DNA of 64,000 nt, taken from NCBI GenBank assembly GCA_036785375.1, contig JAWMAR010000160.1, forward strand, positions 1,922,001-1,986,000. The letters run 5' to 3'. Below are positions 15,001 to 60,000 of this stretch, in pieces. The position numbers were made by a program. Each line of letters begins with the position of its first letter. Position 1 is the stretch's first letter. The DNA is from Leucoraja ocellata. Lineage: Eukaryota.

Positions 15001-18000
15001 ACAAAGGCTTTTCTCGGTACCTCGGTACACGTGACATTAGACTAAACTCCAGCCTGGTAGGAGCGTAGCCAGCCTGTGTTTAAAAGTCTGTACACTTTGG
15101 TTATATTTTCATCCCCTTAAAGTTAGGTCACCTCTACCAATAGTGAGATCACTGAGAGAACCAGCGTAATGTGTGCTGTCTGTGTTGGACACTTACACAA
15201 TGCACTGGCCGAGACATGGAGGTCACGGGGAGAAGGTACAAATTCCATACATACATCACCTGTAATCAGGATCAAACTCGGATCTCTGGGCTGTGAGGTA
15301 GCAACTCTACCGCTGCGCTACCATGCCGCCCGTAAATGTAGATGACAAGCGGTGTGGGTGAAGGACATGTCCACGGGGTCGAGGGCAAGCCGCCAAATTA
15401 GATTCAAAAGTGACTTGGTATGAGGAGATACATGGGTGATGAAGAGTATGGGCTTTGTTGATGCAAGCACATGACCAGTGATGTACCACAACGACTAGTG
15501 CTGACATTCTATACATGAACAGCTTGGATATGAATGTAGGAAGTCTGAGGAGTCAGCTTACAGATGAGGCAAACGCTGATGGTGTTGTTGAATAGGCTAT
15601 AGGATGATATAGATATAGGGCCAAGCTCCTATACTTTGTAAGGAGTTATCGTCTATTCCTGGAATCATAGCTTCTGTAGGCGAAGGGGTCATAGGTTCCA
15701 ACTGAAGGAACTTGATGTAGTTGATCTGATTGACCACAGAAACAATGAGTGGCTGGCTCTGTTGCAGTGTTAAATATACAATCCACAGATGTAGGAAAAC
15801 TTTAGCAGAGGACAGTATGTGCGGAGACTTCTAGAGGTGTACCATAGATCATATAGAGGTATACAAAATCATGAGAGGAATAGATTGGGTAGATGCACAG
15901 AGTCTTGCCCAGAGTAGGGAAATCGAGGACCAGAGAACATAGGTTCAAGGTGAAGGGGTAAAGATTTAATAAGAATCCAAGGGGTGACTTTTTCACGCAA
16001 AGGGTGGTGGGTGTATGGAACAAGCTGCCAGAGGAGGTAGTTGAGGCTGGGACTATCCCATCGTTTAAGAAACAGTTAGACAGGACAGGACATTGATAGG
16101 ACATGTTTGGAGGGATATGGACCAAGCGCAGGCTAGTGGGACTAGTGTAGCTGGGACATTGTTGGCCGGTGTGGGCAAGTTGGGCCGAAGGGCCTGTTTC
16201 CACACTGTATCACTCTATGACTGTGGCCAATGCTGTGAGAAAACAGCTGTAGTTACTTTCAATGCCAACACTGATGTGAATAGGTTCTTTTTTCCAACAT
16301 TTGTATTTAATATTGCTTCACCAATAAGCTATATTTTATTCAAAGATATATTCTGTTTACTTGTACAAATGTATCACTAGAAACAGCCCTTGTTATATCA
16401 TTACCTACATCTTCATTTAGTGGTTACAAATATAAGTAGCATCGTTGGAAAAATTGTCTTGACAAGAAATGGCTTTAGGCTGTAAATGCAGTGAAATACA
16501 CAGTATGTATTCAGGAACCAGCGGCAACAAAAGTCTAATATATGACTGTGAAATTAATGCTATAACAGGCACAATATAATACAGTATAAACAATTTGCTT
16601 GATAGAGTCTACAGTGTTGTTAACATCAGGAGGCCCAACCTGTGAAAAGTGCTAGCCTGATTATCGGGGTACTGCTGAAATGGGGGGAGTCAAAAATGGA
16701 TCGAGGAGTTAGAATTGAATTAGCATGAAAAGTAAGTAAGAAAGAGAAAAAGGTAAACACTACAACTATGCAAATAGACAAGAGGCTATCACTGTGTAAC
16801 ATTTGGGTACGGGACTGGTGAGGACACGTCTGTCACTGTATAACACTGGGGTACTGTAACGGAGGGGACACGTCTGTAACTGTATAACACTGGGATACAG
16901 CACTGGCAGGGACAGGTCCGTCACCGTGCAACACTGGGGTACTGTAATGGTGGGGACAGGTCTGTACCTGTACAACACTGGGGTACAGTACCGGTGGAGA
17001 TGGGTCGGTCACCGTGTAACCCTGGGGTACATTACTGATGGGGACAGGATCGTCACTGTGTAACACTGGGGTACAGTACTGATGGGGATAACTCTGTCAC
17101 TGGGGTACAATACTGGTGGGGACAGGTCTGTCATTGTGTAACACTAGGGTGCAAACCTGTCATGTATAATACTGGAATGCAGTATTCTAGAGCACTAAGT
17201 GCAATTCCACTGATTACTCTAGCAGAGAGATCATTTGATTTACTCTCACGAGTGGAAATCAGGATGAATAAGAATTTGTAAATGGACATGAATGAATACT
17301 GAGCATTGTGTAGTTGGAGGAGGTTACAGGGATAGGAAGGGATGAGAGTATGGCAATAATGAAACAAGAGGAAGAGAAGAATGGCACAAAAGGCAGGAGT
17401 AACTCAGAGGGTCAGGCAGCATCTCTGGAGAAAAGAAATAGGTGATGTTTCGGGTTGAAACCCTTCTTCAAACTGAAGAAGGGTCTCGACCCAAAACATC
17501 ACCTATTCAATTTCTTCAGAGATGCTGCCTGACCCGCTTAGTTATTCCAGCCTTTTGTGTCTGTCTACGGTTTAAACCAGCATCTGCAGTTCCTCCCTAG
17601 ACAAGAGGGTAAGAATACAGGAAAAGGCATCGACTCACATTTTATCCATTTATGACAATATTTTATCAGACAACATTCACGTAATTTAAGCAAGTAGTTC
17701 ACCTTGGAAAGATTATTGCACCAAGTGTGTGATCCAATGTCCATTCCCATCAATGGGAAGAAAAGTCGCATGGCTCTGATGTTCTCGGTGCACAGCTGGC
17801 TTTGATGCCAGCGTTCTGGTATCAGTTCAGAGTTTGACAAATGGACACAAAAACGACCCAAAATTCAGAACATTCCTGAGAATGAACTGTTGTTACATTT
17901 CCTAGAGTAAGTGCCATCAGTCGACTGTAACATTGCATCAGGAGCCGCCTCAGTAACAATATTCAGACAATTGTTGTGATATGTCCGTCTAACTCACAGG

Positions 18001-57000: not shown

Positions 57001-60000
57001 TCTTTTTCAGCTTCCTTTCTCCCCCCCCTCCTCTCATCCTTCTCCGTCAGTCTGAAATGTCCCGACCCGAAACGTTGCCCCACCATTTCCCTCCATAGAC
57101 GCAGCCTGACCCGCCGAGTTCCTCCAGCACCTTGTTGCTTTATATTAGAACAGCCACCCCGTCCCTGTAACTATTTCACCTTTCATTGTACCTTAATGTG
57201 AATCAGGACGTGGAAGCTTTTCATTGTACCTCGACAATAAACCTTTGATAATAAACTAAACTCTCAGACTGAAACATTGAAAAGAGGTGTAGTAATAGGC
57301 CCTTCGGCCCTTCGAGCTAGCACCGCCATTCAATATGAAGAATGGTCTTGACCCGAAAAGTCACCTATCGATGTTCTCCAGAAATGCTGCCTAACCCGCT
57401 GAGTTACTCCAGCATTTTGTGTGTCTATAAACGAAACTTTTCCACTCAGAGAATTGTGAATTTGTGGAATTCTCTGCCACAGAGGACAACAGAGGCCAAT
57501 TCACTGGATGAATTTAAAAGAGTTAGATGGAACTCTAGAGGCTAGCGGAAAGACGGGATATGTGGAGAAGGCAGGCACGGGTTATTGATTGTGGGTGAGC
57601 AGCCATGATCACAATGTATGGCGGTGCTGGCTCGAAGGGCCAAATGGCCTCCTCCTGCACATATTTACCACGTTTCTAAACTTCAACTGCGGTCCGGTCC
57701 CGAGAATCTCACTGTTAGAAGCGAAGATAAATCAGTGGCCAGTTCAGGGTGTGGGTTTTGCCAGAGGTGACGGGGAACTGGGGTTGGGAGGGGGAGAGGG
57801 GAGGCGGGGGTCGGCGACGCCATGGACAAGTTTTCTCCCACCAAGAACCAGCTTCAGCCAAACCCCCAGCATCTGAGCACATATGATTACAGCCCTCTCC
57901 TAAGCGCCGTGTTACCGGTAACCGCGGTCAGATCACAACCCGAACAACAGCGCAGCCTCGCCGCAGGTACCTGCCACAGTAAACAACCAGGTCAAAATGT
58001 AAAGGTATCCAGCCCACGGCGTGAGTCCCGCATCCATAGCTGAATGGTTGCTTTCAAGCGCTCAATCCTCAGACTAAAGGTTTCCTCGGCAAGTTCCCTC
58101 GCGTTCCCCAGCGCTTTGAGATGAGCGCGGTACCAGGGCTGGACTTGCACTGGAAGGAAACTTCAACACCGCCCTCCTTTCCACAACTGCCTGAGATGCT
58201 GGCATCGACATTTATGTTTCCACATCAGCCTTGGCCGTCCCCCGCCTGTCTTATCACACCAAGGGTCTCGACCCGAAACGTCACTCATTCCTTCTCTCCA
58301 GAGATGCTGCCTGTCCCGCTGAGTCACTCCAGCATTTTGTGCTTATCTTAGGTGTAAATCAGCGTCAGCAGTTCCTTGCGACACAAAATGATACTTATGT
58401 CCAGTTCAACGGGACATTTTGAAGTCCCCTTGATTGCATTTTATCTCTGTATGCTTCGTTGTCAGCTTGTCCTAGGTAACAATGATCTATTCTGGACAGA
58501 CACACAATACAGCAGCATCTCTGGAGAGAAGGAATGGGTCTGATGCTTCAGACTGAAGAAGGATCTCAACATAAATGTCACCCATTCCTTCTATCCAGAG
58601 GTGATGCCTGTCCCGCTGAGTTACCAGAGACCCAGGTTCGATCCTGTCCACGGGTGCTGCCTGTACAGAGTCTGTACCCTCTCCCCGTGACCTGCGTGCG
58701 TATTCTCCGCGAGCGCCGGCTTCCTCCCACATTCAAAATATGTACAGGTTTGTAGGTTAATTGGCTTGGTAAAATTGTAAATTGTCCTGTAGTGTGTGTA
58801 GGATAGTGTGCGGGATCACTGGTCGGTGCGGACTCGGTGGGGCTTAAGGGCCTGTTTCCGCGCTGTATCTCTAAACTAAACTAAACTAAAGTAAATCAGA
58901 TAATACTACACATGAATACAATCAGGCCAAATTCAAGAACAATAGATGGAGCAAGAGAAAGGTGCAGAGTGCAGAATATGGTTGTCAGCATTGTAGCCTA
59001 ACAGTTCCAGAATAAAAGTCCAATGTCCATAAGCATGACTTCTACATGTGAAAGGCGACATTATCAGAATCAATGTGTAGGAAGGAACTGCAGATGCTGG
59101 TTTACACCGAAGATAGACTATACATGCTTACAATCGAGCCATTTACAGTGTCTAGGTACAGGATAAGGGCAATAAAATTTAGTGCAAGATAAAGTCCAGT
59201 AAAGGAAAGGATCTTGACACAAACCGTCACCTATCCATGTTCTCCAGAGGTGCTGCTTAAGGTCATAAGGAATAGGAGCAGAATTAGGCCATTCGGCCCA
59301 TCAAGTCTATTCAGTGCTGACTGTCTTGCTGGGTTACTCCAGCGTTTTGTATCTTTACTTGGTAAACCAGCATCTGCAGTTCCTTATTTCTACTTATCCA
59401 GCCTGGATTTGCTTTGCCAATCAAAGCTACCAAACAACTTTAGCCAACAGAGCTTGGCTATAAAGAGAATGTTATTTATAAGATAAGATATTGAAGATGA
59501 TTATGTGGAAATTCATTTCTTGTGGGACGAGGTGTTATTGTCAAAACAAATCAATATTTCTTCCTGTGCATCTGTGCTTTATGTCAGGAAAAAGGAAAAT
59601 TACTCATCTTTTATTTGTATCCATTGAGAATATTGTGTTATGAAAGCCCCATTGATGCTAAATTTCTTTCCTGTTGTAATGACTTTGATTGCCAAGAATC
59701 AGAGGAGTTTTATAGTGTTATGCACAGCGAATTCCTAACACAAAGCTCCCACATGGAGCATACACATTAGTTCCTTTCACATAAGATAGACACAAAAAGC
59801 TGGAGTAACTCAACGGGACAGGCAGGCAGCATTTCTGGAGAGAAAGAATGGGTTGAGACGCTCGACCCGAAATGTCACCCATTCCTTCTCTCCAGCGATG
59901 CTGCCTGTCGCACTGAGTTACTCAGTCTGAAGAAGGGTTTCGGCCCGAAAAGTTGCCTATTCCTTCACTCCATAGATGCTGCCGCACCCGCTGAGTTTCT

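What the first reader, a model, noticed from the sequence alone, without database searches (positions are those of the whole stretch)
17989..58037. Tandem ICAM-like pair with divergent architecture and swapped ICAM1 hallmarks
Seen: both genes have a 67-nt signal exon and a 315-nt D2 exon with strong similarity, so they are tandem paralogs. After D2 they differ completely. A has two more C2-like domains; B has one I-set domain only ~500 bp after D2, leaving no room for extra exons. Gene A has the ICAM1-like promoter but a GEYNV tail resembling recalled ICAM5/ICAM2-type tails. Gene B has the ICAM1-like tail but no TTCNNNGAA in its proximal promoter. Inference: this is subfunctionalisation, possibly by reciprocal exon loss from a 5-domain ancestor, into an inducible and a constitutive integrin ligand, paralleling ICAM1/ICAM2 independently.
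Basis: partly seen in the sequence, partly recalled or inferred. Interest (0 to 1): 0.7.

Follow-up and report, generated by a model that had tools for sequence, protein, structure and literature searches.

The report
Tandem ICAM-family gene pair in a skate
Two neighbouring skate genes are members of the ICAM family of leukocyte-adhesion molecules: an ancient pair that kept the same integrin-binding head but lost different inner domains, and whose relatives are already machine-annotated in other sharks and rays.

Summary
The observation mostly holds. Two genes lie head-to-tail on the minus strand. Gene B (58037-50475) is signal, D1, D2, I-set, TM/tail. Gene A (31600-17989) is signal, D1, D2, D3, D4, TM/tail. 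Signal exons are 67 nt, D2 exons 315 nt (53/104 aa identical), and the B D2 to I-set intron is 503 bp. Two database proteins of 504 and 357 aa from a close skate map collinearly on the exon chains. No extra Ig exon or relic exists.

Both are ICAM-family. Both D1 exons pass Pfam ICAM_N. An A-type profile hits human ICAM-1 collinearly (E 5e-22). Four cysteines and the glutamate aligned with ICAM-1 Glu34 are invariant in 31 of 31 D1 copies.

"Swapped hallmarks" fails: the two tails are homologous and share one motif.

Complementary domain loss is supported in altered form. Sharks and rays have six-domain forms. B's I-set is the membrane-proximal one. The A/B D1 split predates the shark-ray split. 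Skate A lost its I-sets later.

Gene A's promoter carries two GAS sites and a kB-like site, and B's carries none. Inducible versus constitutive expression remains inference.

Related species already carry automatic "ICAM-like", "VCAM1-like" or "hemicentin-like" annotations. I rate it a new member of a known kind, of moderate interest.

The parts
57971..58037 (-). Gene B exon 1: start codon and signal peptide, 67 nt, ends in phase 1
   Evidence: ATG, hydrophobic 22-aa peptide and GT donor. P0007 residues 1-24 map here at 96% identity.
56423..56671 (-). Gene B exon 2: D1, ICAM N-terminal domain (B-type), 249 nt
   Evidence: Pfam ICAM_N 23.0 bits, cut-off 21. Splice sites. B-type D1 clade with 100/99 support. 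Four Cys and the Glu are invariant.
53117..53431 (-). Gene B exon 3: D2, 315 nt
   Evidence: 51% identical to A's D2. Best PDB hit is ICAM-2 D2, E 1e-3. P0007 is 97-99% identical here.
52335..52613 (-). Gene B exon 4: I-set Ig domain, 279 nt, 503 bp after D2
   Evidence: Pfam I-set 52.4 bits. Falls in the membrane-proximal 'I6' type of the family's I-set domains, split 100/100.
50475..50638 (-). Gene B exon 5: transmembrane segment, 25-aa tail and stop codon
   Evidence: ORF and acceptor site. P0007 residues 304-357 are 100% identical. The tail is homologous to A's tail.
31829..31837 (-). kB-like site (GGRNWTTCC class), about 230 bp upstream of gene A's ATG
   Evidence: One of 5 such sites in the 64-kb window. 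Sequence read. Consensus match only, function not shown. The strict GGGRNNYYCC pattern is absent from both promoters.
31711..31746 (.). Two GAS/STAT-type palindromes (TTCNNNGAA) 27 bp apart, 110-146 bp upstream of gene A's ATG
   Evidence: The site at 31711 is one of only 2 strict TTCCNGGAA sites in the window. Only 0.5% of 300-bp windows hold two or more GAS sites.
31534..31600 (-). Gene A exon 1: start codon and signal peptide, 67 nt, ends in phase 1
   Evidence: P0001 residues 1-23 map here at 96% identity.
29949..30224 (-). Gene A exon 2: D1, ICAM N-terminal domain (A-type), 276 nt
   Evidence: Pfam ICAM_N 23.7 bits, cut-off 21. PDB hit ICAM-2, E 1e-3. A-type D1 clade. Glu and four Cys invariant.
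28136..28450 (-). Gene A exon 3: D2, 315 nt
   Evidence: PDB hits ICAM-5 D2 (E 3.4e-4) and ICAM-2 D2 (E 0.02).
26236..26529 (-). Gene A exon 4: D3, 294 nt
   Evidence: Pfam ICAM1_3_5_D2 38.5 bits, cut-off 27.5. Best PDB hit is ICAM-1 residues 190-265 (its D3), E 8.6e-11.
23702..23986 (-). Gene A exon 5: D4, divergent C2-like Ig domain, 285 nt
   Evidence: Only sub-threshold Ig matches in Pfam. No significant PDB hit alone. In the profile it continues the collinear match into ICAM-1 D4. P0001 is 96-97% identical.
17989..18266 (-). Gene A exon 6: transmembrane segment, tail of about 60 aa (contains GEYNV) and stop codon
   Evidence: P0001 residues 413-504 map here. Shares the tail motif with B and with shark and ray relatives.

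Best explanation
The window comes from a skate (family Rajidae by protein identity; it is not human). It holds two adjacent, same-strand members of the ICAM family.

Both genes encode type I membrane proteins. Their first domain is an ICAM-type D1 with two C-x3-C cysteine pairs. It also has a glutamate at the position of ICAM-1 Glu34, the residue that binds the metal ion of the integrin alpha-L I domain.

The most likely function of both is as counter-receptors for beta-2 (LFA-1-like) integrins on leukocytes. This is inferred, not shown.

The pair is old:
- The two D1 types separated before sharks and rays diverged.
- The inferred ancestor was a six-domain protein (D1-D2-D3-D4 plus two I-set domains).
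- Gene B kept D1, D2 and the membrane-proximal I-set.
- Skate gene A kept D1-D4 and lost both I-sets.
- The tails of A and B descend from one ancestral tail.

Gene A's proximal promoter carries STAT/GAS and kB-like motifs that B's lacks. A cytokine-inducible A and a differently regulated B is therefore a reasonable but untested division of labour.
For: Gene structure:
- Exon models with canonical splice sites and matching phases.
- P0001 and P0007 map collinearly at 93-100% identity per exon outside D1 (74-80% in D1).

ICAM family membership:
- Pfam ICAM_N is above its cut-off for both D1 exons, and ICAM1_3_5_D2 is above its cut-off for A's D3.
- The A-type profile against PDB gives ICAM-1 E 5.3e-22 (collinear, profile 42-340 to residues 14-305), ICAM-5 E 1.3e-18 and ICAM-2 E 5.1e-14. 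VCAM-1 reaches only E 8e-7, through one inner domain.
- The D1-D2 part of the B-type profile hits ICAM-2 at E 3.4e-13. No VCAM or MAdCAM entry is among the 60 listed.
- Exon by exon: A D3 hits ICAM-1 D3, A D2 hits ICAM-5 and ICAM-2 D2, B D2 hits ICAM-2 D2.
- AlphaFold model of the Rhinoraja A orthologue (pLDDT 74.9): the top 5 Foldseek PDB hits are all ICAM-5 D1-D4 or ICAM-1 (E 4e-24 to 4e-20). The next hit is at E 2e-14.
- AlphaFold model of the Amblyraja B orthologue (pLDDT 80.7): the top 3 hits are ICAM-5.
- The Glu aligned with ICAM-1 Glu34 (alignment) and the four Cys are present in 31 of 31 D1 copies. In the models the Glu ends strand C.
- The role of Glu34/37 in ICAM-1/-3/-5 comes from PMC4237329 (passages read).
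- Alpha-L-type integrins are reported from cartilaginous fish onward in PMC8359198 (passage read).

Age and domain history:
- The D1 tree splits into a B-type clade (7 rows: 2 sharks, sawfish, skates) and an A-type clade (24 rows) with 100/99 support.
- Six-domain forms occur in Heptranchias, Heterodontus, Carcharodon, Narcine, Hemitrygon and Hypanus.
- B's I-set lies in the I6 type, split 100/100.
- The Pristis and Pristiophorus B-type proteins have the same three domains.
- A Heterodontus model runs from B-type into A-type domains, which suggests the same gene order.

Tail homology.

Promoter motifs.
Against: - No binding, expression or synteny data exist here.
- No tree with tetrapod, teleost or chimaera ICAM, VCAM1 or MAdCAM1 could be built. 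The direction 'loss in B' rather than 'gain in A' therefore rests on ICAM-1 being collinear with D1-D4 and on parsimony.
- The B D1 exon alone finds nothing in PDB, and the A D4 exon alone finds nothing.
- Foldseek hits of multi-Ig models are partly generic. For B, nectin-like 4, LRIG1 and titin follow ICAM-5 closely.
- The D2 tree does not separate A from B. In Heterodontus the B-type D2 copy of one predicted protein (P0016) is identical to the D2 of another predicted A-type protein (P0021). D2 therefore says nothing about the age of the pair, and gene conversion blurs the history.
- The shark gene order rests on one automatic read-through gene model.
- A skate six-domain paralog outside this window cannot be excluded. 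The word-based search is weak evidence of absence.
- The promoter motifs are consensus matches picked after the fact, the transcription start is unknown, and strict kB sites are absent.
Confidence: 0.72

Rival explanations
1. A and B are one-to-one orthologues of different tetrapod genes (for example B = VCAM1 or ICAM2, A = ICAM1/ICAM5). On this view the pair is not a lineage-specific division of labour.
For: - NCBI's automatic names differ. B-type proteins are called 'vascular cell adhesion protein 1' (Pristis) or 'hemicentin-1-like' (Amblyraja). A-type proteins are called 'ICAM1-like' or 'ICAM5-like'.
- The A/B D1 split is deep.
- No tree with tetrapod genes could be made.
Against: - B's D1-D2 matches ICAM-2 (E 3.4e-13), with no VCAM or MAdCAM entry among the 60 listed.
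- The automatic names appear to follow the generic I-set domain, which hits contactins and neurofascin.
- In D1-D2-only structures, the A-type profile also scores ICAM-2 highest: 54.6 bits against 28.9 for ICAM-1 and 23.8 for ICAM-5. A and B therefore show the same preference.
- The tails are homologous.
- The genes are adjacent, and D2 exons are still exchanged in a shark.
Confidence: 0.13
2. There was no complementary loss. The ancestor was short (D1-D2-I-set, like B) and the A lineage gained D3, D4 and a second I-set by exon duplication or shuffling. Alternatively, B arose by a partial duplication that never included those exons.
For: - The family readily changes domain number. Stingray proteins carry repeated D3-D4 blocks, up to 947 aa.
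- All Ig exons are phase 1-1, so gain is as easy as loss.
- No relic exons remain in either gene.
Against: - Human ICAM-1 is collinear with D1-D2-D3 and into D4, and A's D3 exon hits ICAM-1 D3 specifically. D3-D4 therefore predate the elasmobranch pair.
- B's I-set is of the same type as the last domain of the long forms. The simplest history is an internal deletion of three exons in B.
- All three skate A orthologues with a complete C-terminus lack I-sets, while the shark, electric-ray and stingray long forms have them. This points to loss in skates.
Confidence: 0.15
3. The proteins are ICAM-like in fold but are not beta-2 integrin ligands. They could be, for example, homophilic adhesion molecules or ligands of other receptors.
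For: - No binding data exist.
- Identity to mammalian ICAMs is only about 14-21%.
- B's I-set resembles neural adhesion molecules.
- D1 evolves fast.
Against: - The Glu and the four Cys are invariant in 31 of 31 D1 copies across sharks and rays, despite fast D1 evolution.
- The Glu aligns with ICAM-1 Glu34.
- The receptor class is reported in cartilaginous fish (PMC8359198, passage read).
Confidence: 0.12

Closest known systems
Mammalian ICAM-1 (CD54)
   Same: - ICAM_N-type D1 with two C-x3-C pairs and the Glu34-equivalent.
- Collinear D1-D2-D3(-D4) match (E 5e-22).
- One Ig domain per phase-1 exon, and a single-pass TM with a short tail.
- Gene A has GAS and kB-like motifs upstream. That the human ICAM1 promoter has such elements is recalled, not checked here.
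   Different: - Four (A) or three (B) domains instead of five.
- Only about 20% identity in the structure alignment.
- The ancestral elasmobranch form ends in two I-set domains.
- Binding and inducibility are untested.
Mammalian ICAM-2 (CD102)
   Same: It is the best-scoring D1-D2 structure for both the A-type and B-type profiles (54.6 and 52.2 bits) and for the B D2 exon. Like ICAM-2, B is a short form.
   Different: - ICAM-2 has two Ig domains (PMC8417878 introduction, passage read). B has a third, I-set domain.
- No orthology has been shown.
Mammalian ICAM-5 (telencephalin)
   Same: It is the best structural match of both models: D1-D4, E 4e-24 for A and 3e-16 for B. A's D2 exon hits ICAM-5 D2.
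   Different: ICAMs as a family have 2-9 Ig domains (PMC11843237, abstract in a search listing). That ICAM-5 is the nine-domain, brain-specific member is recalled. There is no sign of such a form here.
VCAM-1 / MAdCAM-1
   Same: They are integrin-binding Ig-superfamily molecules of endothelium. NCBI names several family members 'VCAM1-like'.
   Different: - VCAM-1 matches only weakly, and through an inner domain (E 8e-7).
- There is no Pfam Adhes-Ig_like hit above its cut-off.
- The conserved acidic residue is a Glu at the ICAM position. That VCAM-1 and MAdCAM-1 instead use an Asp in a loop is recalled.
Automatic RefSeq models in other elasmobranchs, and teleost 'ICAM-1'
   Same: - Gene A corresponds to L. 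erinacea LOC129714544, A. radiata 'ICAM5-like' and R. longicauda 'ICAM1-like'.
- Gene B corresponds to A. radiata 'hemicentin-1-like X2' and P. pectinata 'VCAM1 X2'.
- Trout ICAM-1 has been described as pathogen-induced (PMC8417878, abstract start in a search listing and passages read).
- A nurse-shark spleen atlas uses 'Icam3' as a myeloid marker (PMC10529500, passage read).
   Different: My searches found no paper that analyses the elasmobranch cluster, its two D1 types or its domain history.

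Membership tests
ICAM family (ICAM1-5 type) | N-terminal domain matches the ICAM_N family model | tested here: met
   Pfam PF03921: 23.7 bits (A) and 23.0 bits (B), cut-off 21. The margin is small for single exons. It is backed by profile hits to ICAM-1, -5 and -2.
ICAM family (ICAM1-5 type) | Two C-x3-C cysteine pairs in D1 (extra disulfide) | tested here: met
   All four Cys are present in 31 of 31 D1 copies, including both window exons. They align with the ICAM-1 cysteines.
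ICAM family (ICAM1-5 type) | Glutamate at the end of strand C of D1 (ICAM-1 Glu34) that binds the integrin I-domain metal | tested here: met
   The Glu is present in 31 of 31 copies. It aligns with Glu34 in the ICAM-1 alignment and lies at the end of the third strand in both models. Its role is taken from PMC4237329.
ICAM family (ICAM1-5 type) | Collinear chain of Ig domains homologous to ICAM D2, D3 and onward, then TM and a short tail | tested here: met
   For A: collinear match to ICAM-1 residues 14-305, D3 exon to ICAM-1 D3, and whole-ectodomain fold match to ICAM-5 D1-D4 with TM-score 0.67 on the target. For B: only D1-D2 are ICAM-like, and the third domain is a generic I-set.
ICAM family (ICAM1-5 type) | [quoted passage not shown] | not testable with these tools
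ICAM family (ICAM1-5 type) | Conserved synteny with the tetrapod ICAM cluster | tested here: inconclusive
   0 of 136 ORFs of at least 55 aa in the flanks (1-17950 and 58100-64000) hit any Pfam family at E<=0.01. No neighbouring gene is recognisable in the window.
VCAM-1 / MAdCAM-1 | D1-D2 closest to VCAM-1 or MAdCAM-1 structures or family models | tested here: not met
   VCAM-1 reaches only E 8e-7, through profile positions 214-318 (A's D3 region), against 5e-22 for ICAM-1. It is absent from the 60 listed B-profile hits. Pfam Adhes-Ig_like scores 12.6 bits against a cut-off of 25.
Hemicentin (the NCBI name of the Amblyraja B orthologue) | Very long chain of I-set domains with other hemicentin modules (recalled) | tested here: not met
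   B encodes 357 aa with a single I-set domain. The name looks like a best-hit artefact of that domain.

The most novel reading that the evidence does not exclude
The pair records how the ICAM system began. On this reading, a six-domain ICAM (D1-D4 plus two I-set domains) with the Glu-to-integrin contact already existed in early jawed vertebrates. It split into a long and a short gene before sharks and rays diverged. In skates the long gene was then trimmed to four domains. The result would be an inducible long form and a differently regulated short form, arrived at independently of mammalian ICAM1/ICAM2. This would contradict the recent placing of ICAM1-3 as amniote-restricted (PMC13262535, passages read).
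Probability: 0.35. Interest if true: 0.55.

Novelty: new member of a known kind. Interest (0 to 1): 0.36.

Why it matters
A 2026 survey lists ICAMs as amniote-restricted and suggests that other jawed vertebrates use different molecules at the immune synapse (PMC13262535, passages read). Here, skate genes and their shark and ray relatives pass the sequence and fold tests for ICAMs and keep the integrin-contact glutamate. Alpha-L-type integrins are reported from cartilaginous fish onward (PMC8359198). The LFA-1/ICAM axis may therefore be as old as adaptive immunity.

The cluster is also a clean case of domain-number evolution by whole-exon loss and gain, with exon-level gene conversion. The gain in knowledge is incremental, because related species already carry automatic ICAM-like annotations.

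Tried and rejected
- Names and taxa for the 146 new unnamed representative hits. That search gave 480 hits at E<=1e-3, 200 at E<=1e-10 and 37 at E<=1e-30. As a result, no tree with non-elasmobranch relatives was built.
- Single-exon PDB searches that gave nothing significant: B D1 (best E 1) and A D4 (best E 0.31).
- Relic exons. No I-set remnant lies in A's 5.4-kb D4-to-TM intron, and no D3/D4 remnant lies in B. The only extra match is a 113-bp local duplicate of the I-set exon's 3' end.
- Strict kB sites (GGGRNNYYCC): 2 in the window against 14 expected, and none at either promoter.
- Flanking genes for synteny: none recognised.
- Rfam: no match.
- The idea that A's 'D3 = ICAM D2' because of the Pfam model's name. 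I rejected it because the exon hits ICAM-1 residues 190-265, which is D3.
- Complex prediction was not run, because no integrin partner sequence was available.
No orthologous genomic DNA (promoters, neighbours) could be fetched.
- One paper outline call timed out. Passages of the same paper were read.

Full report
**What is there**

The window has no N and is not human. Its proteins are 93-100% identical, outside D1, to skate proteins, so it comes from a skate.

Both genes of the finding lie on the minus strand.

| Exon | Gene B | Gene A |
|---|---|---|
| Signal | 58037-57971 (67 nt) | 31600-31534 (67 nt) |
| D1 | 56671-56423 | 30224-29949 |
| D2 | 53431-53117 (315 nt) | 28450-28136 (315 nt) |
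| Next Ig exons | I-set 52613-52335 | D3 26529-26236; D4 23986-23702 |
| TM/tail | 50638-50475 | 18266-17989 |

All Ig exons have AG/GT borders and are phase 1-1. The finding's end points are B's ATG and A's stop codon.

I never joined the window's exons for a search, fold or tree. Whole-protein steps used database orthologues.

**Check of the observation**

- D2 exons: 53/104 aa identical with no gaps (E 1e-36), and 193/315 nt identical.
- D1 exons: 30/88 aa identical.
- Signal exons: same length and phase, but only 35/67 nt identical.
- The intron between B's D2 and its I-set is 503 bp.
- B's I-set is unrelated to A's D3 and D4.
- No further Ig exon exists. 0 of 86 other minus-strand ORFs of at least 50 aa within the genes hit an Ig family.
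- All 322 tblastn matches of 33 family proteins (E<=0.1) fall in the 11 exon models.
- Two database proteins from a very close skate map collinearly on the models: P0001 (504 aa) on gene A and P0007 (357 aa) on gene B. Each is recorded on a short contig of about 2.2-2.6 kb. Every junction codon I checked by hand agrees with them.

**Family**

- Both D1 exons pass Pfam ICAM_N, at 23.7 and 23.0 bits against a cut-off of 21. A's D3 passes ICAM1_3_5_D2. B's third domain is a plain I-set.
- A profile of five A-type proteins finds human ICAM-1 at E 5.3e-22. The alignment is collinear over D1-D2-D3 and into D4. ICAM-5 follows at 1.3e-18 and ICAM-2 at 5.1e-14. VCAM-1 reaches only 8e-7, through an inner domain.
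- In a profile of three B-type proteins, D1-D2 finds ICAM-2 at 3.4e-13. The I-set finds contactins and similar proteins.
- Exon by exon:
  - A D1 hits ICAM-2 at E 1e-3.
  - A D2 hits ICAM-5 and ICAM-2 D2.
  - A D3 hits ICAM-1 D3 at E 8.6e-11.
  - B D2 hits ICAM-2 D2.
  - B D1 and A D4 find nothing.
- AlphaFold models of the named orthologues were compared with PDB. For Rhinoraja A (pLDDT 74.9), the top five hits are all ICAM-5 D1-D4 or ICAM-1, and the next hit is six orders of magnitude weaker. For Amblyraja B (pLDDT 80.7), the top three are ICAM-5, followed closely by generic multi-Ig proteins.
- The language-model atlas places A's D1-D2 nearest to clusters named ICAM 1 (0.95) and ICAM 2 (0.93).
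- The four D1 cysteines, and the glutamate that aligns with ICAM-1 Glu34, are present in 31 of 31 D1 copies of the family.
- Glu34/37 is the residue that ICAM-1, -3 and -5 give to the metal of the alpha-L I domain (PMC4237329, passages). Alpha-L-type integrins are reported from cartilaginous fish onward (PMC8359198, passage).

**History**

Searches returned 33 family proteins. Thirty-one are named, from 15 elasmobranch species, and two are unnamed. They range from 254 to 947 aa, with several per contig. Their automatic names are ICAM1-like, ICAM2-like, ICAM5-like, VCAM1-like, hemicentin-1-like or uncharacterized.

I mapped the window's exon types on them.
- Sharks (Heptranchias, Heterodontus, Carcharodon), the electric ray Narcine and stingrays have D1-D2-D3-D4-I-I-TM.
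- Pristis and Pristiophorus have B-type D1-D2-I.
- Stingrays have forms with repeated D3-D4 blocks.

I built trees from these proteins plus the window's single exons. Domain pieces covering less than 75% of an exon were left out, except in the I-set tree.

- D1 tree: splits with 100/99 support into a B-type clade (7 rows: two sharks, sawfish, skates, the window) and an A-type clade (24 rows). The split is therefore older than the shark-ray divergence.
- I-set tree: two types, split 100/100. B's I-set lies with the membrane-proximal type.
- D3 and D4 trees: skates, sharks and stingrays-plus-sawfish cluster separately, which indicates lineage-specific expansions.
- D2 tree: does not separate A from B. 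In Heterodontus the B-type D2 copy of one predicted protein (P0016) is identical to the D2 of another predicted A-type protein (P0021), which points to exon-level gene conversion. Skate A's D2 sits on a long branch.

A Heterodontus model reads from B-type into A-type domains, which suggests the same B-then-A order as here. In Amblyraja the two orthologues share a contig.

The simplest history has four steps:
1. A six-domain ancestor.
2. An early duplication.
3. Loss of D3-D4-I5 in B.
4. A later loss of I5-I6 in skate A.

No relic exons remain.

**Tails and promoters**

The tails are not 'swapped'. They align with each other (E 8e-6). Across shark and ray A-types and B-types they share one juxtamembrane motif: basic residues, then a single Tyr, then a Pro/Asn-rich stretch. 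B's tail is simply shorter.

Upstream of A's ATG lie three motifs:
- two GAS sites, at 31711 and 31738. The first is one of only two strict TTCCNGGAA sites in the window.
- a kB-like site at 31829, one of five in the window.

Only 0.5% of 300-bp windows hold two GAS sites. The 500 bp upstream of B have none of these motifs. They have one Sp1, one AP-1, one CRE-half and three GATA matches.

These are consensus matches, and the transcription starts are unknown. Inducible versus constitutive use is therefore inference.

**What is known**

- ICAMs have 2-9 Ig domains (PMC11843237, abstract in a search listing). ICAM-2 has two and ICAM-1 has five (PMC8417878, passage).
- A 2026 survey groups ICAM1-3 as amniote-restricted (PMC13262535, passages).
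- Another paper dates ICAM1 to bony fish and VCAM1 to cartilaginous fish (PMC7916592, passages).
- Trout ICAM-1 has been described (PMC8417878, passages).
- A nurse-shark atlas uses 'Icam3' as a myeloid marker (PMC10529500, passage).
- Seven full-text searches found no study of the elasmobranch cluster.
- I did not see supplements. Those of PMC4237329 and PMC8417878 may hold relevant tables.

**Limits**

- No tree with tetrapod genes was built. Name look-up for the unnamed hits was unavailable, and I left those hits unused.
- No synteny could be tested. 0 of 136 flank ORFs hit Pfam.
- There are no expression or binding data.

**Verdict**

This is a real tandem pair of ICAM-family genes in a skate. 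Complementary domain loss is supported in modified form. The 'swapped hallmarks' claim is rejected. The functional split is plausible but unproven. I rate it a new member of a known kind, with interest 0.36.

Noticed in passing
window 29949-30224 and 56423-56671 (the D1 exons): D1 diverges faster than the rest of the protein in all 7 of 7 comparisons with orthologues (Fisher p from 6.7e-8 to 0.0073). For example, gene A against P0001 shows 18/91 differences in D1 and 10/385 elsewhere. The Glu and four Cys nevertheless stay invariant. This pattern would fit diversifying selection on the binding face.
   Followed up: partly
P0016, P0021 and P0024 (Heterodontus francisci proteins); compare window 28136-28450 and 53117-53431: In the horn shark the B-type D2 copy of P0016 is identical to the D2 of the A-type protein P0021, and all four Heterodontus D2 copies form one species clade (98/91 support), while the D1 domains are deeply split. 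This points to exon-level gene conversion. In the skate the two D2 exons are only 51% identical.
   Followed up: partly
window 51632-51744 and 52261-52372: A 113-bp direct duplication with 628-bp spacing, 82-98% identical. It copies the last 38 nt of B's I-set exon, its donor site and 74 nt of intron into the I-set-to-TM intron. This creates a decoy exon end.
   Followed up: partly
window 18564-19428 (gene A's last intron, about 300 bp upstream of the TM exon): A GC-rich element of about 865 bp. It is bounded by 54-nt and 48-nt terminal inverted repeats and has internal 212-nt inverted arms (95% complementary). It looks like a foldback or MITE-like insertion, and it produces long spurious ORFs on both strands.
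   Followed up: partly
window 33272-34735 (+) and 46342-46812 (-): The 19-kb spacer between the genes holds a 487-aa open reverse-transcriptase ORF (Pfam RVT_1, 111.8 bits) and a second, shorter fragment of the same kind of element. Many short repeat copies with similar translated peptides are spread through the window. They were not classified.
   Followed up: partly
window 31034-31234 (intron 1 of gene A): An imperfect tandem array of CA-rich units of about 26 bp, 5.6-7.1 copies depending on the row, lying between A's signal exon and its D1 exon.
   Followed up: no
P0002 (Leucoraja erinacea LOC129714544 isoform X2), compared with window gene A: This automatic model skips D3, which is in frame because exons are phase 1-1. 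It also starts with a Ser/Thr-rich repeat of about 130 aa instead of the signal peptide. No match to that repeat exists in the window at E<=0.1.
   Followed up: partly
window 29949-30224 (gene A D1): The window, P0001, P0002 and the Amblyraja A orthologue carry an extra pair of cysteines in the middle of D1. Rhinoraja, Narcine, the sharks and the B-type proteins lack it. It could be a lineage-specific extra disulfide.
   Followed up: no
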